A stretch of 11,529 bases of DNA, from IMG/VR virus record IMGVR_UViG_2534681833_000007, positions 1 to 11,529 of that record; one strand, written 5' to 3'. Made by a program: the position numbers and the translations under genes. This DNA comes from a virus. Lineage: Duplodnaviria; Heunggongvirae; Uroviricota; Caudoviricetes. Of this stretch, positions 965 through 11,529 are shown piece by piece (the first letter of the stretch is position 1; each line of letters begins with the position of its first letter). Under the pieces are notes generated by a model. The model ran no database searches. It saw only the letters and a list, made by a program, of their open reading frames with translations, and was not told where the DNA came from.

Positions 965-1612
965 TCAGCGACCAATCACCACAACCTGACCACCATCACC
1001 TTCATCTGCCGTGCTGATCTCCTGAGATACCACCCGCGACCCCACACGCATTTCACCGTACAGAACGGGCAGAACATTGCCCTGGGCAACCATGTTATCC
1101 AGTGACGAGAAATACGTGTTCTGTTTGCCGTTATCTGTACTGGCTGCCGTGGGCGTCCTGGCTTTCGGTGCCAGCATCTGCGCCACACCACCCAGGATCA
1201 TACTGGCCCCTGCTGCATACATACCCGATACAGCCGCGGCCCCTAGCCAGCCCACAGGGTTCCACCATGCCACCGCAATCAGCGCCGCACCCAGCACCGC
1301 CTGAAACACACCGCCACTTTTGGCCCCCTCCAGACGCGGAACGATGTGGATCACGGCACCATTTGCCAGCGGCTCATTAAGACGGGCAGACAATTCGGTT
1401 TCACCTGCATCACGCCCGGCAATCCGTACCTGATACCAGCCGTCACTCAGTTTCTGACGAAACGCCGGGATCTGCATGGCCAGCGCCCGGATGGCTTCGG
1501 CCCCCGTTTTCACACGAAGGTCGATGCGGCGGCCAAATCGTTGTAAATTCCCGTAAAGGCAGATGCGTGCCATGCCCGGTGACGCCAGAGGGAGTGTGTG
1601 CGTCGCTGCCAT
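965..1612 (-). CDS. I: Tail assembly protein I (lambda gpI-like)
   Basis: 215-aa ORF starting MAATHTLPLASPGMARICLYG... and ending ...GDGGQVVVIGR, matching recalled lambda gpI. ATG at 1612. Overlaps the 3' end of K by about 100 nt, as in lambda. Confidence 0.9.
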   Translation of the reverse strand: MAATHTLPLASPGMARICLYGNLQRFGRRIDLRVKTGAEAIRALAMQIPAFRQKLSDGWYQVRIAGRDAGETELSARLNEPLANGAVIHIVPRLEGAKSGGVFQAVLGAALIAVAWWNPVGWLGAAAVSGMYAAGASMILGGVAQMLAPKARTPTAASTDNGKQNTYFSSLDNMVAQGNVLPVLYGEMRVGSRVVSQEISTADEGDGGQVVVIGR

Positions 1613-2253
1613 TTGTCGGTATACCTCTCTCGTTTGCTCAGTTGTTCAGGAATATGGTGCAGCAGCTCGCCGTCGCCGCAGTAAATGGCGGCATGATTCG
1701 GCACCGATGAACCAAAACAGCACAGCAGCACATCGCCCGGCTGCGCCTCTGTCAGTGCGACACGGTAAAAACTAGTCGCCTCCATATTGTCAAGATAGAG
1801 ATTCTGGCCGTTACGCCACCAGTCATCCCCGCGATAAAAATCCGGCATCTCAATTTCCGCCAGATGGTATGCATCCCGGAACAGCGTGTAACAGTCCGTC
1901 ACCCCGTGCTCAAAGCGCCGCCCGGTAAGATGTGGCACACAGCGGAACTTGTGAATCGCCCCCCGGCAGACCAGCCACCACGGCAAATCACTCTGCACCT
2001 GCAGCCGCCTGTCGACCTCACTCAGCCAGGGCAGACCACCGGGGTGGCTGTGGACCAGTGCCACAACCTCCCCCTGCATCTCTGCCTGCAGCCAGTCCTC
2101 CGGCGACATCCGGAAATACGCCTCCGGCTCACCGGAGATATTCACGCAGGGAAAATATCTGTCCCCCTCCGGCGTTCTCACCACGAAGCCGCACGACTCC
2201 GCTGGCGCACATGGCCGGGCGTGCGCCAGAATCGCTGATTCTGTCTCTGTCAT
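1510..2253 (-). CDS. K: Tail tip assembly protein K (lambda gpK-like; MPN/JAMM plus NlpC/P60 domains)
   Basis: In-frame ATG at 2253, 5 nt after the L stop, gives 247 aa beginning MTETESAILAHARPCAPAESCGF... JAMM signature HSHPGGLPWLSEVD present; later Cys/His consistent with NlpC/P60. The track ORF (start 2328) begins at a GTG inside L and is probably too long; an internal ATG at 2109 would give the shorter 199-aa form. Confidence 0.85.
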   Translation of the reverse strand: MTETESAILAHARPCAPAESCGFVVRTPEGDRYFPCVNISGEPEAYFRMSPEDWLQAEMQGEVVALVHSHPGGLPWLSEVDRRLQVQSDLPWWLVCRGAIHKFRCVPHLTGRRFEHGVTDCYTLFRDAYHLAEIEMPDFYRGDDWWRNGQNLYLDNMEATSFYRVALTEAQPGDVLLCCFGSSVPNHAAIYCGDGELLHHIPEQLSKRERYTDKWQRRTHSLWRHRAWHASAFTGIYNDLAAASTFV

Positions 2254-2257
2254 GGGT

Positions 2258-2956
2258 TTACTGCGAAAGTTTGTTAATGGAAAGGTAGCCGCCAAAATTG
2301 CCGACGTTATTGCGGAACTTGCAACCACTCAGGCATTTGCTGCATTTATCCTTCGTGATATCGGACGTTGGCTGGTCATATTCATCCGCGACCGCCGGGC
2401 CATCATAACCGCACTCATCGCCGCGGTAGATCCAGGTGCAGGTGTTGGCCAGCATGATGCGCCCCGGAAAAACAGCACCATCCGTTTCCGTCGGTGTGGA
2501 CAGCACAAAAGAGGCACTGACCGCGCTCAGTTCGCTGCACTGTTCGATGCGCCAGCGGCTGATCACCTCCTGCTCCGGATCGGCGTCACTGTTTCCGTTG
2601 ACGAAGTTCACCGCATCCAGAAAACGGGCGTAAACCTTACGCCGGACCACCGTTCCGCCGACCAGACTCTGCAGATCTTCCGCCATCCCGGTGACCATGC
2701 CGTACAGATTAGAGACTTTAAGCGTTGGCCTTGCACTGGCTCCTTTGCCGTTCATCTCAAATCCGCTTCCCTGAATGGGATAAGCCTGATACTGCCGCCC
2801 CTGCCAGGTGACTGGTTCACCTTTTTCGTTCTGCTCATTACAGAAGAAATAACGATCTCCGCCGACTTCTGTCAGATCAATTTCCCAGAGCACGACCAGC
2901 GCGGATTGCTCCGTTTTAGTGCACTCATTGAGTGTTTCCTGCTGTATATCCTGCAT
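2258..2956 (-). CDS. L: Minor tail protein L (lambda gpL-like)
   Basis: 232-aa ORF MQDIQQETLNECTKTEQSALVVLWEIDLTEVGG...FGGYLSINKLSQ, near-identical to recalled lambda gpL. Its ATG (2956..2954) overlaps the M stop as TGATG. Confidence 0.92.
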   Translation of the reverse strand: MQDIQQETLNECTKTEQSALVVLWEIDLTEVGGDRYFFCNEQNEKGEPVTWQGRQYQAYPIQGSGFEMNGKGASARPTLKVSNLYGMVTGMAEDLQSLVGGTVVRRKVYARFLDAVNFVNGNSDADPEQEVISRWRIEQCSELSAVSASFVLSTPTETDGAVFPGRIMLANTCTWIYRGDECGYDGPAVADEYDQPTSDITKDKCSKCLSGCKFRNNVGNFGGYLSINKLSQ

Positions 2957-3312
2957 CAGTGAGTGACCTCTTCAAAGGTACAGTTAAAATCGGTATACAT
3001 GGTATTATCCGAAATGCTCCACTCCCTGCAGACAACCCGGACAGTCCTGTTGTGTTTTGGCGGACGCCACAAAAAAGCACGAATCCCGGCATGACGGGAT
3101 AAAAAACTGTCCAGCGCGGCACGGGAATATTCATCTGTGACACGAAATACCGGTTTAAACGTTTTCAGATCCGCATTCAGACCACCAGCCCGTCGCTGTT
3201 CATATCCGTCACCAAACTTTACCGTAATAACTGATGGCTTTCGTGTCGTCTCCATCCCCTCACGGGGGATCCAGTTAAAAACTTCAGGCTCAGGCACTGT
3301 ACAATCCTCCAT
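2956..3312 (-). CDS. M: Minor tail protein M (divergent lambda gpM homologue)
   Basis: Conserved core ...KFGDGY...AGLNA.LKT...SFL...FLW.PP... aligns with recalled lambda gpM at roughly 35-40 percent identity. Start placed at ATG 3312 (118 aa) because the lambda N-terminus (KTFRWKVKPGMD) aligns with EVFNWIPREGME upstream of the alternative ATG at 3255. The track start at 3342 is a TTG. Confidence 0.75.
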   Translation of the reverse strand: MEDCTVPEPEVFNWIPREGMETTRKPSVITVKFGDGYEQRRAGGLNADLKTFKPVFRVTDEYSRAALDSFLSRHAGIRAFLWRPPKHNRTVRVVCREWSISDNTMYTDFNCTFEEVTH

Positions 3313-6300
3313 CCCGACGCGATGACTGCATAATTGACACAACCCTGCTGTCGATCAGATCCACCAGTCCCCTGGCTGAGCGCGCATCTATCTCGCCATT
3401 GCTCCCTTGATTCTGAATGCTGATGTGATACACGGGAGAATAAACAAATCCACCGCCACCATTCACATTTCCAATGGCCCTGACCCCAAGAGAGCCGTCC
3501 GCTGCCCGTGTCAGTGGCATGATTGCTTCAGGCCCGGCCTCGCCCATCAACCCGGCACCTTTCGCAAAAGCAAAATACGTCGGTGTATCCACAATAGTGT
3601 TACTGTAAGCACTCAGATTTGCCGATGTGTAAACACCACCTTTTGCGTTTGCCACTGCCCCCGAAATCCATCCGCCGACCGTACCAAGCCACCCTCCGGC
3701 ACCGGAGAGTGATTTCAGTCCGTTAACAATGGCTGCATTCATCAGAATTTTTGAAACTTCCCGGAGAACTGAACTCCCCCAGTTCCTCCAGTCCACAACA
3801 TTCCCGGCCAGTGCATCGGAAATATTTGATACCAGCCCGTCCATCGTGGAAACGACAGCATCTGCCGCCTGTGAAGCATAATCGGTGGCACTGTCTGCCC
3901 AGTTGGTCAGTCCCTCCTGGAGTCCGGCATTCCAGTTATTACGTAAAGCATCGGCCTTTGCATAATAATCCTGCTGATCGCTGAGACGCTCTTCCAGATA
4001 TTTTTTATTCAGTTCTTTCTCCTGTTTCCACAGAGCTTCTTCAATTTCTCCGGCCTGATACTGTCTCAGCAGCTCGTTATTTTTCTGCTCAAACGCCTGC
4101 CGGATACTCCACATTTCCTGGAGTCGTTCACGCATCCGTGAGCCTTCACCATATCCCAGCAACTGCGCTTCGTCAGATGCCCGGGCACTGGCATTACTGT
4201 CCGCCAGACTGCTCTCATACGCAGCAAGCTGCTCACGAATCTTTTTCTGGTCGATGAGTGCTGCATTCTGCAAAAGCGTTTTTTTCTGCGCTTCTGACAG
4301 GGTTGATAATTCGCCCTGACTGACCTGATATTTCATCTTAGCCAGTTCAGTATTCTGCCCTGCCAGTGCTATTTGTTCTTTTTGCTGTTTAATCAGCCGT
4401 TTATAAATATCTTCTGTTTTTTCCGCTTCGGTCTTTTTATGCGCTTTGGGTTTATTTGCCTGGTTATTTCGCCAGGCATCCAGTGAGTTATTGATATAAT
4501 TCTGTCTGGCTGTCTGATACGCCTCTCCCACAAAGCCGAGATCATCCGCAGCATAACCCAGGCGGGCACGCTCACGGGCTTCCCCCTTCAGGCGGGACAG
4601 AGCCAGTTCGCGCTCACTGTTATTCAGTGCGGCCTGCTGTTTATCATCCAGGGTTGCCTGTGGTAGCCGTAACGGTACATTCACCAGCCCCTGTCGCTGC
4701 TGAAGTAATTCATTACCGAGCCCGAGAAGGCGATTAAACTCGGTATGCTGCCCATTCATGATCAACAGGGACTGATACGCTTTGTTTTGTTCCGCGGCCT
4801 GTTGACGGATCAACGCCACCCGTCGCTCCTCCAGCCCGGCAAGCACATCCTGAATGGATTGCGCTTTGCCCTGCATTTGTGTGAGACGGGACTGTTCAAC
4901 TGCCAGTTGATTTGTTGCTTCTGCAAGCCCTTCTGTGACAGTTTTTACCGACGTCATGTGGTTAATCATAAAACCGTTATCGGTTGTCCAGCCCGGGTTT
5001 GCCAGCACATACTGATAGCCAGCAATTTTTTCCTGTAAGGATTTAATCTTACTTTTCTGCTCGTCAATTAACCTGTTTTGCTCATCAAGTGCCTGCCGCG
5101 TCTTTTCCTCATTATCTGACGCTTCAGGAAGCGACATTGCCGACGTTTTCTGGCGAATTTCGTCGATTGTTGCGGCATACTGGCGTGCAGATTCTCTGGC
5201 CTGCTCCTGATTCTGATACATCGTGTACCAGGCCGTCGCCCCCAGCATGACGAGTCCCGGCACACCACCAACCAACCCCAGCGCACCACTTAACAGACGA
5301 CTCCCCACTGACGTGACAGTATTCAGCGTTGTCTGTGCCGCTGTTCTGGCCGCAATATTACGGGTAAGTGACGCCTGGGCAGCTGTCAGCTTCGCTTCTG
5401 CTGCGGCCTGCCTTTCGGTACCGCGAGCAGCAACAACCGCCTGTTGCGCACGATAAACCGCCGCACGCGCCCTGGCGGTTGCTATCTGTGTCCCCCGAAG
5501 TTGCGCTTCAGCAAGAGCCACTTCTTTTCTGGCTGCAGTAATTAATCCGGCAGTTGCAGATCCAGCAGACGACGCCATATTGCCAAAATATCGGGCTACC
5601 CCGACGGCAACCAGTGCGCCAGCTGCAGCAGCCACGGTATCCATATTGTCTGCAACACCATTCAACACCCCGGTGAGTGTCTTTGTCACTCCGCTTGCCT
5701 CGTTCGCACCACCAACCCAGGCCATAAAGGCGTTTTCAACTTTGGTTGCAGAGGATGAAACAGTATCAGGCATTGCTGCATATTCATCACGCAACGCCCC
5801 AAGCTGACTAATCAGTGCAGGAACAACCTTATCGGCGGTCAGTTTTCCGTTATCCGCCATGGCCTTCAGATCCTTACGGGCAACACCCATTCCCGCAGCC
5901 AGCGCACGAATAACACGATCGCCGTTCTCATTCACAGAGTTAAATTCTTCACCGCGCAGCACTCCCTGCGCCAGTGCCTGACTGAACTGCGTGATCACCG
6001 AACTGGCTTCTGCTGTACTGGCACCGGATAATTTCAGGCCCGTAGAGATCGCCTCGGTGACTTTCAGTACCTCCTCAGAACTGTAGCCATACTCCCGCAT
6101 GGAAGCTGCAGAGCGGGCAAAAAGGCTGGCGTTATCAGAAAACGCCGTTCCCGTTCTCTGGCTGATTGCCATTAATTCACGTTGTGATACCTGAAAATCA
6201 TCACTGGACTGTGAAGCCTGCTTCAGACGGGCATTTACTGAATTCCACTCATCGGCGAGAGAAATAAGATGACCGGTAGCAAAAGCTCCGGCAAATGCCC

Positions 6301-6523
6301 CCGCCATATTCAGTGCCGAAGATTTAGCTATATTTATCTGATCCGTCACTTCTGCCAGTGCACGCCGCATTTCACGGGATGCAGCAGCGGACTGCCGGCC
6401 TCCGTTCTGCATGGTACGGTAGTAATCCTGCCCCATACGCGAAGCCCGGGAGATCTCTGACTGGAATGACCGGGAATTTGCCGAGATTTTAATAATCAGT
6501 TCACGTAATGTCGCCACACTCAT
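3290..6523 (-). CDS. Tail tape measure protein (1077 aa)
   Basis: Very long ORF placed between the chaperone pair and M; Ala/Gln-rich helical central region typical of tape measure proteins, Gly-rich hydrophobic C-terminal segment. ATG at 6523 preceded by GGAGA. Longer than lambda gpH (853 aa as I recall) and not obviously co-linear with it. Confidence 0.9.
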   Translation of the reverse strand: MSVATLRELIIKISANSRSFQSEISRASRMGQDYYRTMQNGGRQSAAASREMRRALAEVTDQINIAKSSALNMAGAFAGAFATGHLISLADEWNSVNARLKQASQSSDDFQVSQRELMAISQRTGTAFSDNASLFARSAASMREYGYSSEEVLKVTEAISTGLKLSGASTAEASSVITQFSQALAQGVLRGEEFNSVNENGDRVIRALAAGMGVARKDLKAMADNGKLTADKVVPALISQLGALRDEYAAMPDTVSSSATKVENAFMAWVGGANEASGVTKTLTGVLNGVADNMDTVAAAAGALVAVGVARYFGNMASSAGSATAGLITAARKEVALAEAQLRGTQIATARARAAVYRAQQAVVAARGTERQAAAEAKLTAAQASLTRNIAARTAAQTTLNTVTSVGSRLLSGALGLVGGVPGLVMLGATAWYTMYQNQEQARESARQYAATIDEIRQKTSAMSLPEASDNEEKTRQALDEQNRLIDEQKSKIKSLQEKIAGYQYVLANPGWTTDNGFMINHMTSVKTVTEGLAEATNQLAVEQSRLTQMQGKAQSIQDVLAGLEERRVALIRQQAAEQNKAYQSLLIMNGQHTEFNRLLGLGNELLQQRQGLVNVPLRLPQATLDDKQQAALNNSERELALSRLKGEARERARLGYAADDLGFVGEAYQTARQNYINNSLDAWRNNQANKPKAHKKTEAEKTEDIYKRLIKQQKEQIALAGQNTELAKMKYQVSQGELSTLSEAQKKTLLQNAALIDQKKIREQLAAYESSLADSNASARASDEAQLLGYGEGSRMRERLQEMWSIRQAFEQKNNELLRQYQAGEIEEALWKQEKELNKKYLEERLSDQQDYYAKADALRNNWNAGLQEGLTNWADSATDYASQAADAVVSTMDGLVSNISDALAGNVVDWRNWGSSVLREVSKILMNAAIVNGLKSLSGAGGWLGTVGGWISGAVANAKGGVYTSANLSAYSNTIVDTPTYFAFAKGAGLMGEAGPEAIMPLTRAADGSLGVRAIGNVNGGGGFVYSPVYHISIQNQGSNGEIDARSARGLVDLIDSRVVSIMQSSRRDGGLYSA

Positions 6524-6533
6524 TCTCCGGACG

Positions 6534-6554
6534 AAAAAAACCGCCGAAGCGGTT
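6534..6554 (-). terminator. Terminator-like hairpin just upstream of the tape measure start (stem AACCGC/GCGGUU, UUCG loop, then U5 on the minus-strand RNA)
   Basis: Inverted repeat 6539-6544 / 6549-6554 with loop 6545-6548 and a 7-A run at 6534-6540 on the plus strand, lying in the 40-nt gap between the T stop (6563) and the tape measure ATG (6523). Confidence 0.3.
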
Positions 6555-6562
6555 ATGTTGAC

Positions 6563-7236
6563 TCACTGAGACACTATTAAAAGCGCGTTTTCCAGTCCGG
6601 CAAATGGATCTGAGACGCCTTCTGTCTGCTCTTGTTCCCACTGAAGAAGCGCATCATTCAGTGGGACTTTGACACCCTGCGCACCGTAAACCGCAGAAAC
6701 TATCTGGGCAGCCCGGATATCAGCCCGCTCGTCACCCAGCGGGCTGAACCTGTCAAATTCTGCCCACATCATGATTTCTGATGCGGACATTTCCCGGCGT
6801 AACTCTGACAATGTGCGCCCCATCCTGAGCGCCAGCATCATCAGAAAACGCATCCCCGGAAGCGCTACTTTTTTTTAACCTCGCCGGCATCACTGATCAG
6901 TTCCAGAGACTGCCGAAGAAGCCGCGCATGCACCGGGCCATACACGGCAATCACCTGTTCACGATCATCCTCTGAAAATACAGGTTGCAGTCCGGTATCA
7001 CACAGAACATCAATGAATAGTTCAACATCTGCCTCCAGATTTCGGCGGGCGCGCTCCGCAACGGATAACGGTGTCTCATCATCTTTTGCTTTAACGATCT
7101 CCTGCCAGCGCAACCAGGCTTCTGCAGAAGGTTCCCGTAATACAACCGTTGCCCCTTCCCATTCAGGCACATCAACAGTTTTATGGCGAAACCCCGACAT
7201 CGTTGCCAGTGCCAGATTGCGGATATTTTTAGTCAT
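6563..7236 (-). CDS. Tail assembly chaperone G-T fusion, made by -1 programmed ribosomal frameshift near the 3' end of G
   Basis: The 6563-6853 ORF (T part) is in the -1 frame relative to G (codon phase checked: G codons start at coordinate 1 mod 3, T codons at 2 mod 3). G ends ...GAG GTT AAA AAA AAG TAG, so a slip on A AAA AAG reads on as ...KK-VALPG-MRFLMMLAL... This is the conserved G/GT arrangement found immediately upstream of tape measure genes. Confidence 0.75.
6865..7236 (-). CDS. Tail assembly chaperone (lambda gpG-equivalent)
   Basis: ORF directly upstream of the tape measure gene, ending in the slippery site. Start chosen at ATG 7236 (GAGGAT about 7 nt upstream); an alternative ATG at 7251 overlaps the major tail protein stop (TAATG) and would add MRIDV. 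Confidence 0.8.
   Translation of the reverse strand: MTKNIRNLALATMSGFRHKTVDVPEWEGATVVLREPSAEAWLRWQEIVKAKDDETPLSVAERARRNLEADVELFIDVLCDTGLQPVFSEDDREQVIAVYGPVHARLLRQSLELISDAGEVKKK
6868..6874 (-). promoter_or_regulatory. -1 frameshift slippery heptamer A AAA AAG (G to G-T)
   Basis: Plus-strand C + T8 run at 6868-6876; on the minus strand the heptamer is in X XXY YYZ phase with the G frame, and the G stop TAG follows immediately. Confidence 0.7.
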
Positions 7237-7250
7237 CACATCTATCCTCA

Positions 7251-7955
7251 TTAACTGACGGTAACAGTGCAGGAAGTGGAGGTCACCTTGTTAACAGGGC
7301 TTGCTGAATCAGAAATCTCGCAGGTATACGCACCGGCATCACCTGATGCTGCTGATGCCTTACTGAATGTTGCCGCCGTCTGTCCGGAAACAGGAGAACT
7401 ACCTTTCTTCCAGACATAAGAATAAGGCGGCACACCACCGGCAGCCTCAACCACCATTTCGAGTTTCGCTCCGGCAGAAACCTGCAGCGTGCTGTTTAAA
7501 TCGACCTTCACTTTCAGCGGCTCTGTCGTCAGCACAGGTTTACCTTTCAGGCGCAGGGAAAACGTTGCAGCCACAACACCATTAGTTCCTGCAGACCAGG
7601 TATGCTGACGCACCTCTGCCATAAAGGTAAATCCGTTGCCTGACGGAAAAATAACTTTAAAGCCATACGTGGTGTCATTGTCATAGGCACTGCGCAACGC
7701 GTTCTGGGCAGCATTGAGGTAAAAGTTGCCTGACATGGAAATCTCTGACGCGGCACCAAGGCCGTTAATATTTTCCTGCTCAACAGAACACAGCGTGGTG
7801 ACATCAATATCCTGCTTTTGTCCTGCGGTAAACTGCACCTCTTTGATTGTACAGCTCAGGCCAAGATAGCTGGCAGAATCCAGGGTTTCTGCTGTTACCG
7901 GTGCAGACGAAATCATAATTTTCGTCAGTTGCGAACGCTCAAAATTAGAGGACAT
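7251..7955 (-). CDS. Major tail (tube) protein with C-terminal Ig-like domain
   Basis: Sits in the position of lambda V (after the terminator-like gene, before the chaperone pair). 234 aa from ATG 7955 with AGGAGA 6 nt upstream. C-terminal ~90 aa (...GGVPPYSYVWKKGSS...GAYTCEISD...CTVTVS) has an Ig-fold-like pattern. Not recognisably lambda gpV by sequence. The track start at 8006 reads through the hairpin and U-tract and is probably wrong. Confidence 0.8.
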   Translation of the reverse strand: MSSNFERSQLTKIMISSAPVTAETLDSASYLGLSCTIKEVQFTAGQKQDIDVTTLCSVEQENINGLGAASEISMSGNFYLNAAQNALRSAYDNDTTYGFKVIFPSGNGFTFMAEVRQHTWSAGTNGVVAATFSLRLKGKPVLTTEPLKVKVDLNSTLQVSAGAKLEMVVEAAGGVPPYSYVWKKGSSPVSGQTAATFSKASAASGDAGAYTCEISDSASPVNKVTSTSCTVTVS

Positions 7956-7969
7956 ACTCGTCTCCTGAA

Positions 7970-7994
7970 AATAAAAAACCCGCCAGCGGCGGGT
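7970..7994 (-). terminator. Intrinsic-terminator-like hairpin upstream of the major tail protein gene (stem CCCGCC/GGCGGG, then UUUUUUAUUUU on the minus-strand RNA)
   Basis: All-GC 6-bp stem 7979-7984 / 7988-7993 (one further A-U pair 7978/7994), 3-nt loop, followed on the minus strand by a U-run (plus-strand A-run 7971-7978). Lies between the upstream gene stop (8015) and the RBS/ATG at 7955. Confidence 0.4.
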
Positions 7995-8014
7995 GGGTAA
8001 AATCATTAACGACC

Positions 8015-8359
8015 TCAGGCTATTACCTGAAATTCAAGCGTGGCTCTGCTCAGACGGGAATCAGGATCATAACCCTGAGTTTTAGAAATAACGGAGGGTG
8101 CAAGTTGCCTTACCGCATCAAGCGCCTGCTCACGGATATCATCTGCGTCATCAGGTACTGTTGCCCAGACATCGATCTGCACGGTAATTCTGGATTCAGC
8201 CTGACCATCAAGCACATCAGACGCAGTGTCAGACACCACAGAAAATACCAGCCATGGCGGAGATACCGCAGGCTTTCCCTCCGTCAGCGGGACCACATAA
8301 GGATAAACCTGTCCTCCGGCCAGTTGAGACAGCAGGGAATACAGTGTGGTCTCTCTCAT
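8015..8359 (-). CDS. Tail terminator / tail-component protein (lambda U-position; family not identified from sequence)
   Basis: 114-aa ORF. Its ATG at 8359 overlaps the upstream stop (ATGA). Called by position between the gp10-like gene and the major tail protein gene. Confidence 0.7.
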   Translation of the reverse strand: MRETTLYSLLSQLAGGQVYPYVVPLTEGKPAVSPPWLVFSVVSDTASDVLDGQAESRITVQIDVWATVPDDADDIREQALDAVRQLAPSVISKTQGYDPDSRLSRATLEFQVIA

Positions 8360-8802
8360 TTACTTAAGACCTCATCAATAGCCTGATTCATTCGCTGTAT
8401 GGCAATCTGTGCTGCCAGTTCCTCTGTCGTATCGAAAGCCGGGCGAATGAACGGATGCGCGGGCATGTTTATCGTTCCCAGCTCCACAAAGCGCCAGTAA
8501 AACGCATTTCGGGGATCACTGGCTTTCATGCTGTTATCACTGTTTCCGGTTCGCAGGTTCCGTCCACGAATGTGGACACCCGAGATAATTTCCCCCCGAC
8601 GCTTTGAACGCTGAGTGAGAACAACCACATTTTTCTTCAGTTTCCCGGTTCGCTCCGGCGCACGTTCAACAACTGCATCCCGCATAACTTCAGCACCGGC
8701 ACGGGTGGCATCGCGCAGTACCTTATTGTTTTCTGCCCTGCTGAGCGTCTCCAGATCCCGTGCAATATCCGCCAGACCTGAAAAATCAAGACTGAAATCC
8801 AT
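8356..8802 (-). CDS. Tail completion / head-tail joining protein, HK97 gp10-like (lambda Z-position)
   Basis: 148 aa from ATG 8802 (AAGGGGA about 7 nt upstream; the track start at 8805 is a GTG). Contains ...MPAHPFIRPAFD..., which I associate with the HK97 gp10 family. Its ATG overlaps the stop of the truncated upstream remnant (TGATG). Confidence 0.75.
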   Translation of the reverse strand: MDFSLDFSGLADIARDLETLSRAENNKVLRDATRAGAEVMRDAVVERAPERTGKLKKNVVVLTQRSKRRGEIISGVHIRGRNLRTGNSDNSMKASDPRNAFYWRFVELGTINMPAHPFIRPAFDTTEELAAQIAIQRMNQAIDEVLSK

Positions 8803-8922
8803 CACACATTCCCCTTCTGAGAACAGAGTATCTCAAGCCGTGTGGCACGAGCATCCGGTATCGGCGGACCGTCTATACTCAGAATCGCGCCTTTGAATGC
8901 ACCAGTCAGCACTTTCAGACAT
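8802..8922 (-). pseudogene. 3' remnant (39 codons plus stop) of a phage morphogenesis gene whose 5' part is replaced by IS2
   Basis: Minus-strand frame is open from the IS2 boundary (8922) to a TGA at 8804..8802, translating CLKVLTGAFKGAILSIDGPPIPDARATRLEILCSQKGNV*. The stop overlaps the next gene's ATG in the coupled fashion seen for the rest of the operon. No start codon or N-terminal part exists on this side of IS2. Confidence 0.5.
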
Positions 8923-8963
8923 TAGACTGGCCCCCTGAATCTCCAGACAACCAATATCACTTA
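8923..8963 (+). repeat. IS2 left terminal inverted repeat (IRL)
   Basis: Imperfect inverted repeat with 10213-10253; shared blocks GCCCC...TCCAGACA...TATCACTTA seen directly. Confidence 0.8.
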
Positions 8964-9013
8964 TTTAAGTGATAGTCTTAATACTAGTTTTTAGACTAGT
9001 CATTGGAGAGCAG

Positions 9014-9379
9014 ATGATTGATGTCTTAGGACCGGAGAAACGCAGACGGCGTACTACACAGGAAAAGATCGCTATTGTTCAGCAGAGTTTTGAACCGGGA
9101 ATGACAGTCTCCCTTGTTGCCCGGCAACACGGTGTGGCAGCCAGCCAGTTATTTCTCTGGCGCAAGCAATACCAGGAGGGAAGTCTTACTGCTGTGGCCG
9201 CAGGAGAACAGGTCGTTCCTGCCTCTGAACTTGCTGCCGCCATGAAGCAGATTAAAGAACTCCAGCGCCTGCTCGGCAAAAAAACGATGGAAAATGAACT
9301 CCTTAAAGAAGCCGTTGAATATGGGCGTGCAAAAAAGTGGATAGCGCACGCGCCCTTATTGCCCGGGGATGGGGAGTAA
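9014..9379 (+). CDS. insC: IS2 OrfA (InsC), HTH transposase-regulator component
   Basis: ATG 9014 with GGAGAG upstream; 121 aa [56 protein letters not shown]... matches recalled IS2 InsC. The track start at 8969 is an upstream extension. Confidence 0.92.
9331..9337 (+). promoter_or_regulatory. IS2 orfA-orfB -1 frameshift heptamer A AAA AAG
   Basis: AAAAAAG at 9331-9337 is in X XXY YYZ phase with orfA (codons GCA AAA AAG); orfB is in the -1 frame and begins at this point. Confidence 0.7.
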
Positions 9380-10242
9380 GCTTAGTCAGCCGTTGTCTCC
9401 GGGTGTCGCGTGCGCAGTTGCACGTCATTCTCAGACGAACCGATGACTGGAAAGATGGTCGCCGCAGCCGTCACTCAGATGATACGGATGTGCTTCTCCG
9501 TATACACCATGTTATCGGAGAGCTGCCCACATATGGTTATCGTCGGGTATGGGCGCTGCTTCGCAGACAGGCCGAACTTGATGGTATGCCTGCGATCAAT
9601 GCCAAACGTATTTACCGGATCATGCGCCAGAATGCGCTGTTGCTTGAGCGAAAACCCGCTGTACCGCCATCGAAACGGGCACATACCGGCAGAGTGGCTG
9701 TGAAAGAAAGTAATCAGCGATGGTGCTCTGACGGGTTCGAGTTCCGCTGTGATAACGGAGAAAAACTGCGAGTCACGTTCGCGCTGGACTGCTGTGACCG
9801 TGAGGCACTGCACTGGGCGGTCACTACGGGCGGCTTCAACAGTGAAACAGTACAGGACGTCATGCTGGGAGCGGTGGAACGCCGTTTCGGCAACGAGCTT
9901 CCGGCGTCTCCAGTAGAGTGGCTGACGGATAATGGTTCATGCTACCGGGCTAATGAAACACGGCAGTTTGCCCGGATGTTGGGGCTTGAACCGAAGAACA
10001 CGGCGGTGCGGAGTCCGGAGAGTAACGGCATAGCAGAGAGCTTCGTGAAAACGATAAAGCGTGACTACATCAGTGTCATGCCCAAACCAGACGGGTTAAC
10101 GGCAGCAAAGAACCTTGCAGAGGCATTCGAGCATTATAACGAATGGCATCCGCATAGTGCACTGGGTTATCGCTCGCCACGGGAATATCTACGGCAGCAA
10201 GCCAGTAATGGGTTAAGTGATAACAGGTGTCTGGAAATATAG
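9337..10242 (+). CDS. insD: IS2 OrfB (InsD), DDE transposase catalytic part; normally expressed as an OrfAB fusion by -1 frameshift
   Basis: 301-aa ORF (GTG at 9337) ...[29 protein letters not shown]...[18 protein letters not shown]..., matching recalled IS2 InsD closely; appears full length. Confidence 0.9.
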
Positions 10243-10253
10243 GGGCAAATCCA
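10213..10253 (+). repeat. IS2 right terminal inverted repeat (IRR)
   Basis: The reverse complement TGGATTTGCCCCTATATTTCCAGACACCTGTTATCACTTAA pairs with IRL. Confidence 0.8.
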
Positions 10254-10651
10254 GGCAAATCCTTTACGTTACTCTCTGATGACTTCTTATATTTATAATA
10301 CCAATCAGACAGCCTTATCCCATCGGTGATATCAGTCTCCTCCTCGCCAGGAACGGGCTGACTCACTGTAACCACCTCCGAAAACAACTCTGCAATTATC
10401 AGAACGCTAGTTTTCCCCTTGTCTCACGAAAGTCCTCCCTCCTTTATCGCGCGTGCGTGCGGAAGCATCTTTTCGCAACAACCACCCGGGATTCCGCTAC
10501 GGCTCTGCCATCGCAATCCCCCCGTTTATCTCCGGACAGCCACATTCCCGATTATTTTTTACGTTTCTCCCCGGTTGTTATGCCAGTGAAGGTGGCGCGC
10601 TGTTTTCATGACCACACCGGCTGGTTTAACAACATCCGGAGGAACATTCTC

Positions 10652-10858
10652 ATGGCTACCCCTGTTTCGCTGATGGATGACCAGATGGTCGACATGGCGT
10701 TTATCACTCAACTTACCGGCTTAACCGATAAGTGGTTTTACAAACTCATCAAAGATGGGGGCTTTCCTGCCCCCATCAAAATGGGGCGCAGCTCCCGCTG
10801 GCTGAAAAGTGAAGTGGAAGCCTGGCTGCAGGCGCGTATTGCACAGCCCCGTCCGTAA
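10652..10858 (+). CDS. AlpA-family phage/island regulatory protein (small HTH, excisionase-like)
   Basis: ATG 10652 with GGAGG 8 nt upstream; 68 aa MATPVSLMDDQMVDMAFITQLTGLTDKWFYKLIKDGGFPAPIKMGRSSRWLKSEVEAWLQARIAQPRP. Size and motif resemble AlpA-like proteins of P4/CP4-57-type integrative elements. The track ORF from 10457 is an upstream extension with no RBS. Confidence 0.75.
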   Translation: MATPVSLMDDQMVDMAFITQLTGLTDKWFYKLIKDGGFPAPIKMGRSSRWLKSEVEAWLQARIAQPRP

Positions 10859-10952
10859 TTTCTGACCGTTATCCGTTCACCCGCAGCAGACGTAATCTCC
10901 GGCCTGCCGGCGGCATTCTGCTGCCTGTTATATCCCCGTGAGGAATATGAAA

Positions 10953-11529
10953 ATGAAACAACAGTATCAGACCCGCTACGAATGGCTCCACGAAAGCTAC
11001 CAGAAATGGCTGACCGGCTTCACCCGGCACGCCGTATCCTGGGGCGTGTGTCATCCGAATATCTACTACTTCCATAATCTGACGCCCGGTTGGGTGTCAT
11101 TCAATGGTGAAAAACCGGAGATTGCCATCGTACCCCAGAGCCTGCACCGGCTGATTTATGGCCCTGACAAACGGGCCACGCCGCCCCTGGATGATGATCT
11201 GATAGTGAATTTATGCACCAGTGAACATCTGCTGGTTCATCATCCGATGCTGGAAGGCATTCTCCTGTCTGAATGTGAACGTCTGAGGCAGCGTTCTCTG
11301 GCAAATAAACTGATCAGCCTCTTCCGTCAGTTTGGTGGCACGGAGTTGCGCCTCAAACTGGTCTGGCTTTGCTGGCTTGATTTAATGACCGGAAACAGCC
11401 TTGACGACTGGACAGAGAATCTGAAACGGAAATCAGAAAAAGAGCTGGAGGAATGGATCATCAACCGTCAGAAGCAGAGCGCAGCACTGACGGATCTGAT
11501 GGATCAGTACGTGCTCCTGTCATACCGCA
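10953..11529 (+). CDS. Hypothetical protein, 5' part only (at least 192 codons); continues beyond window end
   Basis: Open frame with no stop from ATG 10947 / ATG 10953 to the window end; GAGGA at 10940-10944 gives better spacing to 10953. Translation MK(MK)QQYQTRYEWLHESYQKWLTGFTRHAVSWGVCHPNIYYFHNL... Not in the ORF track because it has no stop in the window. I do not recognise the family. Confidence 0.55.
   Translation, partial: MKQQYQTRYEWLHESYQKWLTGFTRHAVSWGVCHPNIYYFHNLTPGWVSFNGEKPEIAIVPQSLHRLIYGPDKRATPPLDDDLIVNLCTSEHLLVHHPMLEGILLSECERLRQRSLANKLISLFRQFGGTELRLKLVWLCWLDLMTGNSLDDWTENLKRKSEKELEEWIINRQKQSAALTDLMDQYVLLSYR

What the first reader, a model, noticed from the sequence alone, without database searches (positions are those of the whole stretch)
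10254..11529. AlpA-family regulator followed by an unrecognised ORF that runs off the window: probable edge of a P4/CP4-57-like island or satellite
AlpA-type genes usually sit near the integrase end of P4-like, CP4-57-like or PICI-like elements and precede replication or cargo genes. The downstream ORF (at least 192 aa; MKQQYQTRYEWLHESYQKWLTGFTRHAV...) has no motif I can assign. Such islands often carry accessory or defence cargo, so this is the most likely place in the window for something undescribed, but only its 5' part is visible.
Basis: inference. Interest (0 to 1): 0.55.

Follow-up and report, generated by a model that had tools for sequence, protein, structure and literature searches.

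The report
AlpA plus orphan island backbone gene
This is a very common piece of an E. coli genomic island: a small AlpA-type DNA-binding regulator followed by an almost complete 200-residue protein of unknown function that always travels with AlpA and a DNA-nicking enzyme, so it is island "housekeeping" rather than new cargo.

Summary
alpA lies at 10652-10858 (Pfam PF05930 above threshold). An ORF starts at 10953 and runs off the window. The ORF is not a 5' fragment, however: it is 200 aa long and 192 are visible.

The same DNA (99.8% identical) occurs in 3,552 of 5,426 complete E. coli genomes, about two copies each. It matches, by gene order and annotation, orf41-orf42 of the Shigella SRL pathogenicity island, where orf42 has been listed as "no similarity/hypothetical" since 2001.

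In 34 of 35 informative species loci it lies directly after AlpA, clustered with a YagK/YfjJ (inovirus Gp2-like) HUH endonuclease and often a Zn-ribbon protein. This cassette sits between a conserved backbone (GTPase to RadC to CbtA) and a variable cargo slot rich in defence systems that ends in integrase-tRNA.

ORF-X is therefore backbone, not cargo. My inference is that it is an accessory of the excision/replication module. The element is not a P4 or PICI satellite. The apparent "edge" is an IS2 breakpoint joining the island to an unrelated prophage.

The parts
8923..10253 (+). IS2 (IS3 family), 1331 bp, with orfA 8969-9379 and orfB 9337-10242. It forms the artificial left border of the finding.
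   Evidence: Pfam HTH_Tnp_1 and rve/rve_3/HTH_21 hits. It is 1331/1331 identical to the IS2 in CV839-06, where it has a GGCAA target duplication. In the window the left flank is phage DNA (GACAT) with no duplication.
10254..10544 (+). Non-coding leader specific to the E. coli lineage, upstream of alpA. The minus-strand ORF 10076-10387 is spurious.
   Evidence: Not conserved outside E. coli-type islands: 0.06-0.4 column identity. No Rfam match. No annotated CDS here in IS-free genomes. The 47-aa fragment has no family hit.
10545..10651 (+). Conserved promoter-proximal / 5'UTR region of alpA, including the RBS GGAGGA at 10638-10643.
   Evidence: About 0.55-0.6 identity across 45 loci from many genera, against about 0.25 further upstream. 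The simple sigma-70 scan finds no consensus promoter.
10652..10858 (+). alpA-family gene (68 aa, pI 9.3). It is the counterpart of SRL PAI orf41 (Vis-like) and only about 23% identical to K-12 AlpA.
   Evidence: PF05930 at 33.1 bits (cut-off 21) and HTH_17. PHROG 66 excisionase/regulator. TIGR01764 excisionase domain below cut-off. Compared with K-12 AlpA. Identical to the CV839-06 protein.
10883..10924 (+). Nested inverted repeat (hairpin) in the alpA/ORF-X spacer: outer arms GCAGCAGA/TCTGCTGC, inner arms CCGG/CCGG.
   Evidence: Found. The inner stem is kept in 24-25 of 26 sequences, with one covarying pair (GC 18, CG 5, AU 1). The outer stem is 6-10 bp in 20 of 21 sequences, but a shuffle control gives 6 bp or more 43% of the time, so it is not significant.
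10953..11529 (+). ORF-X: 192 of 200 codons of a conserved orphan protein (WP_000813451-type; the counterpart of SRL PAI orf42; called 'Aec62' in one UniRef entry). The stop codon lies 26 nt beyond the window.
   Evidence: Full length taken from L001 18700-19302. No family in four libraries. Family limited to Enterobacterales. dN/dS 0.11. AF2 pLDDT 87, pTM 0.86. No PDB fold relative.

Best explanation
The finding is the alpA / ORF-X gene pair of a CP4-44/CP4-57-type (Shigella SRL-PAI-type) enterobacterial genomic island. In this window an IS2 cuts the pair off from the rest of the island and fuses it to an unrelated prophage.

Shown: AlpA is a small basic winged-helix/MerR-like DNA-binding protein of the excisionase/activator family. 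ORF-X is a real, soluble, near-neutral 200-aa protein. Its model has an N-terminal helix plus a small beta-hairpin domain and a C-terminal bundle of about six helices. It has no detectable family or fold relative. Its signature is G-[VI]-L-[LI]-S-E-C-x-R-L ... L-L-C-W-x-[ED]-L ... Y. Across Enterobacterales ORF-X belongs to a conserved cassette made of AlpA, ORF-X, a YagK/YfjJ (inovirus Gp2-like) HUH endonuclease, and often one or two Zn-ribbon_11/DUF7828 proteins. The cassette sits between the conserved backbone (GTPase ... DUF932, antirestriction, RadC, CbeA/CbtA) and a variable cargo slot that ends with integrase and tRNA.

Inferred: the cassette is the island's excision / post-excision replication or mobilisation module. 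AlpA would switch on or direct excision. The HUH protein would nick and replicate or mobilise the excised circle. ORF-X would be a non-catalytic accessory or regulatory subunit of that machinery, more closely tied to the HUH/Zn-ribbon partners than to any cargo.
For: Identity of the element. The 1276-nt region is 99.8% identical to CV839-06 and is present in 3,552 of 5,426 complete E. coli genomes, with a median of 2 places per genome. Its neighbours in L001/L002 are YfjI, GTPase, Ag43, DUF932, antirestriction, RadC, DUF987 and CbeA/CbtA. The gene order matches SRL PAI orf39 (YfjJ/Gp2), orf40 (Hha), orf41 (Vis/AlpA), orf42 (no similarity), orf46 (GTPase), orf47 (Ag43).

Real gene. Median dN/dS is 0.11. 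About 200-aa homologues at 45-65% identity occur in Yersinia, Klebsiella, Salmonella, Serratia, Hafnia, Pantoea, Dickeya, Proteus and other genera.

Backbone, not cargo. AlpA is directly upstream in 34 of 35 informative species loci. The Gp2-like gene is in the same-strand cluster in nearly all loci. Even the subfamily at 28% identity keeps Gp2-like, AlpA, Zn-ribbon and ORF-X. An identical ORF-X protein is found next to different cargos. Cargo families vary: Dnd, BREX, type I R-M, GmrSD, TIR, T6SS, fimbriae.

Link to the HUH partner. Second ORF-X copies travel with Zn-ribbon/Gp2 genes but without AlpA (L013, L030). The Gp2-like proteins keep the H-x-H and Y..K...K motifs.

Non-enzymatic guess. 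The histidines conserved in close relatives are lost in distant members. pI is about 6.6 and there is no TM segment. The C-terminal domain is a helical bundle.

Analogous islands in Pseudomonas (int, defence cargo, RadC, Gp2-like, AlpA) are mobile.
Against: No experiment or homology assigns any activity to ORF-X. The role proposed rests only on conserved gene neighbourhood. Conserved linkage could simply reflect co-inheritance within one island lineage.

In the SRL PAI the demonstrated excision factor is rox (orf3), not the orf41 AlpA paralogue. So even this AlpA's role in excision is untested.

K-12 CP4-57, CP4-6 and CP4-44 have Gp2-family genes but no ORF-X, so ORF-X is not universally required by this kind of island.

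In E. coli-type islands the Gp2 and Zn-ribbon genes are inverted and 1.5-5 kb away from alpA/ORF-X. In this window they are disconnected altogether by the IS2 rearrangement.

Rolling-circle replication or HUH-mediated mobilisation of these islands has not been shown.
Confidence: 0.55

Rival explanations
1. One reading: ORF-X is the first gene of undescribed accessory or defence cargo at the integrase-proximal edge of a P4/PICI-like satellite.
For: Relatives of this cassette are directly followed by defence systems. AlpA is a hallmark of P4-like and PICI elements. ORF-X matches no known family.
Against: ORF-X stays constant while the cargo changes. It has no PADLOC hit. It is essentially absent from phage records, with one unverified low-coverage contig as the only hit. 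No Psu/Sid/Delta/epsilon or packaging genes are annotated in 80 kb around the reference copy. The nearest integrase is about 60 kb away in the nearest genome. The 'edge' is an IS2 breakpoint.
Confidence: 0.07
2. ORF-X is an establishment, anti-defence or counter-silencing factor. It would be expressed early when the island enters a new host, like the antirestriction, RadC and DUF932 'leading-region'-type genes of the same backbone. Alternatively it is a general regulator of the adjacent cargo slot.
For: The backbone carries KlcA/ArdB-type antirestriction, RadC and DUF932 genes. An Hha/YmoA paralogue lies just upstream in E. coli-type islands. The cassette borders a defence hot spot. ORF-X is a small, mildly acidic helical protein. 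A preprint reports that defence and counter-defence genes concentrate near oriTs of genomic islands.
Confidence: 0.2
3. AlpA and ORF-X form a two-gene addiction or abortive-infection pair, with an HTH antitoxin or regulator plus a toxin or effector, that stabilises the island.
For: The pair has a tight, conserved two-gene arrangement with a spacer of about 95 nt. AlpA-like HTH proteins occur as components of defence systems such as MADS: mad1 at E=1.8e-4 and NF047737 at 18.9 bits, well below its cut-off of 80.
Against: The order is regulator first with a long structured spacer, not overlapping genes. Second ORF-X copies occur without AlpA. ORF-X interrupted by an IS is tolerated while AlpA stays intact (L003), but the reverse situation was not examined. 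No toxin-like motif is present, and the islands already carry CbtA/CbeA.
Confidence: 0.1
4. ORF-X is a spurious or decaying ORF with no function.
For: It is annotated only as 'hypothetical'. Many database entries are fragments.
Against: dN/dS is 0.11 over 171 pairs. Full-length conservation holds down to 28% identity with invariant motifs. The AF2 model is confident at pLDDT 87. A good RBS is present. The fragments are mostly contig-end artefacts of a multicopy region.
Confidence: 0.02

Closest known systems
Shigella flexneri SRL pathogenicity island, orf41 (Vis/AlpA-like) and orf42 ('no similarity')
   Same: Same gene order: orf39 YfjJ/Gp2, orf40 Hha/YmoA, orf41 AlpA, orf42 hypothetical, then orf46 GTPase and orf47 Ag43. 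The fec operon and IS66 elements lie to the left, as in L001/L002.
   Different: In the window an IS2 has cut the pair from orf38-40 and fused it to a prophage. I matched by gene order and annotation, not by aligning the SRL PAI sequence itself. The proven RDF of the SRL PAI is rox (orf3), not orf41.
E. coli K-12 cryptic prophage CP4-57 (intA, yfjH, alpA, yfjI, yfjJ, ..., yfjP, ...)
   Same: AlpA-family gene followed by replication-type genes (YfjI/DUF3987, and YfjJ which is Gp2-family). Defence cargo (abpAB, rnlAB). The same GTPase, DUF932, antirestriction, RadC and toxin-antitoxin backbone.
   Different: CP4-57 has no ORF-X: profile search best E = 0.8. K-12 AlpA is only about 23% identical to the window AlpA. 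In CP4-57 alpA lies next to intA. Here the nearest integrase is about 60 kb away or, in other genera, on the far side of the cargo.
Satellite phage P4 and P4-like elements (Vis/AlpA, alpha primase-helicase, Psu-Delta-Sid, epsilon)
   Same: AlpA/Vis-type regulator. A DUF3987 protein (related to the helicase part of alpha) lies next door in the E. coli island. Related islands integrate next to tRNA genes beside an integrase-sized ORF.
   Different: No Psu, Delta, Sid or epsilon. The size is tens of kb rather than about 10 kb. ORF-X has no homologue in 50,697 phage/satellite records apart from one unverified contig.
Pseudomonas tmRNA-integrated genomic islands with IntY, AlpA and an inovirus Gp2-like protein (PMC12595487)
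   Same: Architecture of integrase, variable defence cargo, then a conserved region with RadC, a Gp2-like protein and AlpA adjacent to each other. They are mobile islands without phage or conjugation genes.
   Different: Different host clade. No ORF-X homologue is detectable outside Enterobacterales. Those islands were shown to be transduced by a jumbo phage, and nothing comparable is known here.
Phage-inducible chromosomal islands (PICI) of Gram-negative bacteria
   Same: alpA as a putative master regulator, next to a primase/helicase-like gene.
   Different: No capsid-morphogenesis, terS or redirecting genes. Not 10-15 kb. int is not adjacent.

Membership tests
AlpA family (Pfam PF05930, prophage CP4-57 regulatory protein / excisionase-like wHTH) | Sequence match to the family profile above the curated threshold | tested here: met
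   PF05930 at 33.1 bits against cut-off 21, E=5e-8. HTH_17 at 28.9 bits against 27. PHROG 66 at E=1e-9.
AlpA family (Pfam PF05930, prophage CP4-57 regulatory protein / excisionase-like wHTH) | Activates the integrase gene or acts as a recombination directionality factor for its own element | not testable with these tools
   In the SRL PAI the proven RDF is a different gene, rox = orf3. The excisionase model TIGR01764 scores below its cut-off, 24.1 against 28.8.
CP4-57/CP4-44-type (SRL-PAI-type) enterobacterial integrative island | Conserved backbone: YeeP/YfjP GTPase, DUF932, antirestriction (KlcA-like), RadC/JAB, DUF987, CbeA/CbtA toxin-antitoxin | tested here: met
   All are annotated downstream of the same DNA in CV839-06 (L001) and UPEC132 (L002). 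The same backbone appears in Yersinia, Klebsiella, Salmonella and Dickeya loci. None of it is visible inside the window itself.
CP4-57/CP4-44-type (SRL-PAI-type) enterobacterial integrative island | Tyrosine integrase next to a tRNA/tmRNA attachment site | tested here: inconclusive
   A tyrosine recombinase lies about 60 kb from alpA in CV839-06. tRNA-SeC or tRNA-Leu next to ORFs of about 400 aa (not scanned against any family) lies 7-9 kb downstream of ORF-X in L036, L037 and L044. Neither is in the window, and att sites were not mapped.
P4-like satellite | Co-occurrence of int, Psu, Delta, Sid, AlpA, epsilon (Ash) and alpha primase-helicase in about 10 kb (SatelliteFinder definition, PMC10085698) | tested here: not met
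   Only AlpA and a DUF3987 protein are present. No Psu/Delta/Sid/epsilon is annotated in 37 kb plus 42 kb around the reference copy. This test rests on RefSeq annotation, not on a dedicated profile search.
PICI (phage-inducible chromosomal island) | int, alpA and pri-rep plus capsid-morphogenesis/packaging genes in a 10-15 kb element | tested here: not met
   No packaging or capsid genes belong to the island. The tail and head genes at window 965-8922 belong to a separate HK97-like prophage joined through IS2. int is not adjacent.
Known anti-phage defence systems (PADLOC-DB) | ORF-X matches a defence-system protein model | tested here: not met
   ORF-X has no PADLOC hit at E of 0.1 or better. 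AlpA gives only weak HTH hits (mad1 at 1.8e-4).
Any curated protein family or solved fold, for ORF-X | Profile or structural similarity | tested here: not met

The most novel reading that the evidence does not exclude
ORF-X would be the founding member of a new-fold protein family that is an essential, specific partner of the YagK/YfjJ HUH endonuclease, together with AlpA and the Zn-ribbon protein. The four-gene cassette would drive post-excision rolling-circle replication or helper-dependent mobilisation of a very widespread class of enterobacterial islands. The conserved hairpin in the alpA/ORF-X spacer might serve as its origin or nick site. The cassette would also mark the insertion hot spot where defence systems are exchanged.
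Probability: 0.25. Interest if true: 0.6.

Novelty: already known. Interest (0 to 1): 0.3.

Why it matters
[quoted passage not shown] It has been annotated as "hypothetical" since the SRL PAI was sequenced in 2001, so the window itself reveals nothing new.

What the follow-up adds is a concrete, testable observation. A protein with no family and no recognisable fold is a near-obligate partner of AlpA and an HUH endonuclease. The cassette sits at the boundary of a defence and virulence cargo hot spot in islands from Escherichia, Salmonella, Klebsiella, Yersinia and many other genera.

How these CP4-type islands move, and how their cargo slot is renewed, is still unclear. ORF-X is a cheap and obvious knockout target for answering that question.

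Tried and rejected
- Profile searches of ORF-X against Pfam, NCBIfam, PHROGs and PADLOC found nothing.
- PDB sequence profile search found nothing.
- A second model built on a more diverse alignment was good (pLDDT 87) but still had no fold relative.
- The idea of a His/Cys metal site, raised by the close-homologue alignment, was dropped because the histidines are not conserved in distant members.
- Rfam found nothing in 8800-11529.
- The long leader upstream of alpA was checked as a possible sRNA or regulatory element. Only about 110 nt are conserved, and no consensus promoter was found.
- The spacer hairpin: RNAalifold recovers only the 4-bp inner stem. The window sequence folds no better than shuffles (z = -1.06). 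My outer-stem test did not beat shuffled controls. It is reported only as suggestive.
- A named K-12 homologue was sought in CP4-57, CP4-44 and CP4-6. None exists.
- The only phage hit is an unverified 3x-coverage contig, probably host DNA.
- Plasmid hits are mostly Mb-sized replicons or mislabelled chromosomes.
- Literature searches under 'Aec62' and partner-gene names found no functional data.
- The minus-strand ORF 10076-10387 spans the IS2 end and has no homologues, so it was rejected as a gene.
Full report
**1. What is in the window**

The 11.5-kb window is E. coli DNA with three unrelated pieces.
- Positions 965-8922 carry minus-strand tail and head-completion genes of an HK97-like/lambdoid prophage. 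These include tail assembly proteins, the tape measure (3290-6523), the G/T chaperones, the major tail protein, gp17, gp10 and a stub of the head-closure gene.
- Positions 8923-10253 are a complete 1331-bp IS2.
- The finding starts at 10254, the first base after the IS.

**2. The observation**

alpA is at 10652-10858. It encodes 68 aa with pI 9.3, and the RBS GGAGGA lies 8 nt upstream. It scores 33.1 bits on Pfam PF05930 (cut-off 21) and also matches HTH_17 and PHROG 66 'excisionase and transcriptional regulator'.

After a 94-nt spacer, an ORF starts at 10953 (RBS GAGGAA 7 nt upstream) and runs to the window end. In the same DNA elsewhere the ORF is 200 aa and ends 26 nt past the window. CV839-06 differs from the window by only 3 mismatches in 1276 nt and by one amino acid. 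Only the residues TTVDDKRT are missing. The statement that only the 5' part is visible is therefore wrong.

**3. How common it is**

Megablast finds the 1276-nt region in 3,552 of 5,426 complete E. coli genomes, with a median of 2 and up to 8 places per genome, almost all chromosomal. The protein cluster has more than 4,000 member sequences. All are named 'hypothetical' apart from stray labels such as 'Aec62', which is an island ORF number.

The IS-free gene order is: Zn-ribbon x2, Gp2-family, Hha/YmoA, AlpA, ORF-X, YfjI, GTPase, Ag43, and so on. This matches Table 2 of a paper on the Shigella flexneri SRL pathogenicity island: orf39 YfjJ/Gp2, orf40 Hha, orf41 Vis/AlpA, orf42 'No similarity' (2001) / 'hypothetical protein' (2020), orf46 GTPase, orf47 Ag43. 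ORF-X is thus a long-known unknown. I matched the SRL PAI by gene order and annotation, not by aligning its sequence.

**4. ORF-X as a protein**

- *Family searches.* There is no hit at E of 0.1 or better in Pfam, NCBIfam, PHROGs or PADLOC, and none in PDB sequences.
- *Distribution.* A word-indexed search of 5.8 billion proteins returns 189-254 relatives, all from Enterobacterales. An exhaustive HMM scan of 1.84 billion cluster representatives returns only 124 proteins, most of them fragments, and no link to a larger superfamily. Species-representative genomes give 37 loci in Escherichia, Salmonella, Klebsiella-group genera, Yersinia, Serratia, Hafnia, Pantoea, Mixta, Brenneria, Photorhabdus, Proteus, Morganella and others.
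- *Selection.* The gene is under strong purifying selection, with a median dN/dS of 0.11 over 171 pairs.
- *Conserved residues.* Close homologues suggested a His/Cys cluster, but these histidines are lost in distant members. The family-wide invariants are Y16, Q17, G31, L43, P61, L64, G102, L104, S106, E107, C108, R110, L111, L120, L139, W141, L144 and Y186.
- *Physical properties.* pI is about 6.6 and there is no TM segment.

**5. Genomic context across genera**

Using profiles for ORF-X, AlpA, the Gp2-like protein and the Zn-ribbon protein, I found AlpA directly upstream of ORF-X in 34 of 35 informative species loci. Nearly every locus also has a YagK/YfjJ (REP_ORF2-G2P, inovirus Gp2-like) gene on the same strand. 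It lies either before alpA or after ORF-X, and about half the time it is followed by one or two Zn_ribbon_11/DUF7828 genes.

Even the subfamily at 28% identity shows Gp2-like, AlpA, Zn-ribbon and ORF-X in one cluster. The Gp2-like proteins keep an H-x-H motif and a Y..K...K tyrosine region, so they are plausibly active HUH endonucleases. Second, divergent ORF-X copies in L013 and L030 sit with Zn-ribbon/Gp2 genes but without a second AlpA.

*Flanks of the cassette.* On one side of the cassette is the conserved backbone, transcribed divergently: a hypothetical protein of about 300 aa, the GTPase, YfjS/YfjT/IrmA, DUF932, antirestriction, RadC, DUF987 and CbeA/CbtA. On the other side is a variable slot. 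Examples of its contents:
- DndBCDE plus restriction genes (Yersinia ruckeri)
- BREX plus GmrSD (Klebsiella)
- an SNF2/AAA/S8-peptidase/methylase/ResIII cluster, or a fimbrial operon, next to the very same ORF-X protein (E. coli)
- fimbriae (Salmonella)
- VgrG and effectors

A census of 84 large downstream ORFs from 25 loci is dominated by defence domains: DndB, type I R-M subunits, ResIII/SNF2, GmrSD, TIR, HerA/DUF87 and AAA_15/21. In three loci the slot ends with an ORF of about 400 aa next to tRNA-SeC or tRNA-Leu. I take that ORF to be an integrase from its size and position only, because I did not scan it.

ORF-X is therefore backbone, located at the border of a cargo hot spot.

**6. The 'edge'**

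In CV839-06 the identical IS2 sits upstream of alpA as a simple insertion with a GGCAA target duplication, and IS-free genomes have a single GGCAA. In the window the left flank of the IS is prophage head-closure DNA (GACAT) with no duplication. No complete E. coli genome has that junction, and the same prophage is intact in CV839-06. The adjacency phage / IS2 / alpA therefore results from recombination between two IS2 copies or from an assembly join. It is not a natural island end.

In CV839-06 the nearest tyrosine recombinase is about 60 kb beyond alpA, past fec, capU/virK/lpxM, sugar-utilisation genes and a DUF4007/PAPS-reductase cluster. In the SRL PAI the experimentally studied excision factor rox is orf3, next to int. 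The orf41 AlpA-like gene is a second, interior paralogue. The window's AlpA is only about 23% identical to K-12 AlpA, and K-12's CP4-57, CP4-44 and CP4-6 have Gp2-family genes (YfjJ, YagK) but no ORF-X.

**7. Regulatory anatomy**

Only about 110 nt upstream of alpA is conserved between genera. There is no Rfam match and no consensus sigma-70 promoter.

The alpA/ORF-X spacer has a conserved length of about 85-108 nt in most loci. It contains a nested inverted repeat, at window 10883-10924. The inner 4-bp stem is kept in 24-25 of 26 sequences, with one covarying pair. The outer stem is present in most sequences, with different arm sequences in different subfamilies, but it did not beat a shuffle control, and the window sequence folds no better than shuffles. 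It may be an attenuator, a protein-binding site or an HUH nick site. This remains open.

**8. Interpretation**

*Shown.* The identity of the element, the completeness and reality of ORF-X, its orphan status in sequence and fold, its restriction to Enterobacterales islands, and its near-obligate linkage to AlpA and an HUH endonuclease next to a variable cargo slot.

*Inferred.* The cassette is the island's excision plus replication/mobilisation module, and ORF-X is a non-catalytic accessory or regulator within it. Rival readings are an establishment/anti-defence or counter-silencing factor, an AlpA/ORF-X addiction pair, novel cargo, and a non-functional ORF. They are ranked in the rivals section. 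The last two are effectively excluded by the data.

**9. Comparison with known systems**

The element is a member of the CP4-57/CP4-44/SRL-PAI kind of island. It fails the P4-like and PICI definitions on every hijacking or packaging component and on size. An architecturally similar class (int, defence cargo, RadC, Gp2-like, AlpA) has been described in Pseudomonas and shown to be transduced by a jumbo phage, but ORF-X has no counterpart there.

**10. Verdict**

This is an ordinary, very widespread, already-sequenced island segment. The residual interest is that ORF-X is a conserved, structurally orphan backbone protein whose role in island mobility is experimentally tractable. Interest 0.3.

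Noticed in passing
window 8806-10258: The IS2 (8923-10253) joins a prophage head-closure gene stub (flank GACAT) to the alpA leader (flank GGCAA) with no target-site duplication. The identical IS2 in CV839-06 is a simple insertion with a GGCAA duplication. No complete E. coli genome has the phage/IS2 junction. This is either an IS2-IS2 recombination (inversion or deletion) or a chimeric assembly.
   Followed up: yes
window 10883-10924: A nested hairpin in the alpA/ORF-X spacer. The inner CCGG/CCGG stem covaries to CCGC/GCGG and CCGA/TCGG in other genera. The outer stem uses different arm sequences in different subfamilies but is not statistically supported. It could be an attenuator, an operator or an HUH nick site.
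   Followed up: partly
L004 10794-20594; L007 11772-20600; L046 12156-20600; L055 4596-9776: The slot right after the AlpA/ORF-X/Gp2 cassette holds DndBCDE plus DndB-like/DUF87 genes (Yersinia), BREX with GmrSD (Klebsiella), an unclassified SNF2 / AAA / Peptidase_S8(Y4kK) / N6_N4 methylase / ResIII cluster (E. coli), or VgrG-DUF4123-SMI1 T6SS effector sets. It behaves as a cargo hot spot. The SNF2/AAA/S8/methylase cluster was not identified further.
   Followed up: partly
L013 11544-13627; L030 16692-18459; L027 10589-10870: Some islands carry a second, divergent ORF-X copy (about 31-36% identity) next to Zn-ribbon and/or Gp2-family genes but without a second alpA.
   Followed up: partly
L003 9700-12764: In E. 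coli 2013C_3964 ORF-X is split by an ISEc22 (IS66-family) insertion while alpA is intact. Loss of ORF-X is therefore tolerated in a resident island.
   Followed up: no
L060 31857-42001 (CV839-06 record positions 1341856-1352805): A DUF4007 / 1110-aa protein / PAPS-reductase-family cluster, together with a hypothetical protein and a sensor kinase, lies next to the island's tyrosine recombinase about 60 kb from alpA. It may be an Ssp-type phosphorothioation defence system. This resemblance is recalled from memory and was not tested.
   Followed up: no
SRL PAI orf3 versus orf41 (literature, PMC6980539): The SRL PAI has two AlpA-type genes. rox (orf3) is the characterised excision factor near int. 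orf41, the counterpart of the window's alpA, is uncharacterised. This suggests a composite island made of two CP4-type modules.
   Followed up: partly
L061 (OR851001.1) 1107-1646: A 3.6-kb 'UNVERIFIED_ORG Salmonella phage' contig with 3x coverage encodes a 33%-identical ORF-X homologue. It is most likely host island DNA in a phage preparation. It was not checked for neighbouring alpA or Gp2 genes beyond the HMM scan, which found ORF-X only.
   Followed up: partly
window 7251-8006 (-): The prophage major tail protein carries a C-terminal extension (sequence ...PPYSYVWKKGSSPVSGQTAATF...AGAYTCEISD...) that looks like an Ig-like decoration domain. RefSeq annotates it as hypothetical or as a phage tail protein.
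   Followed up: no
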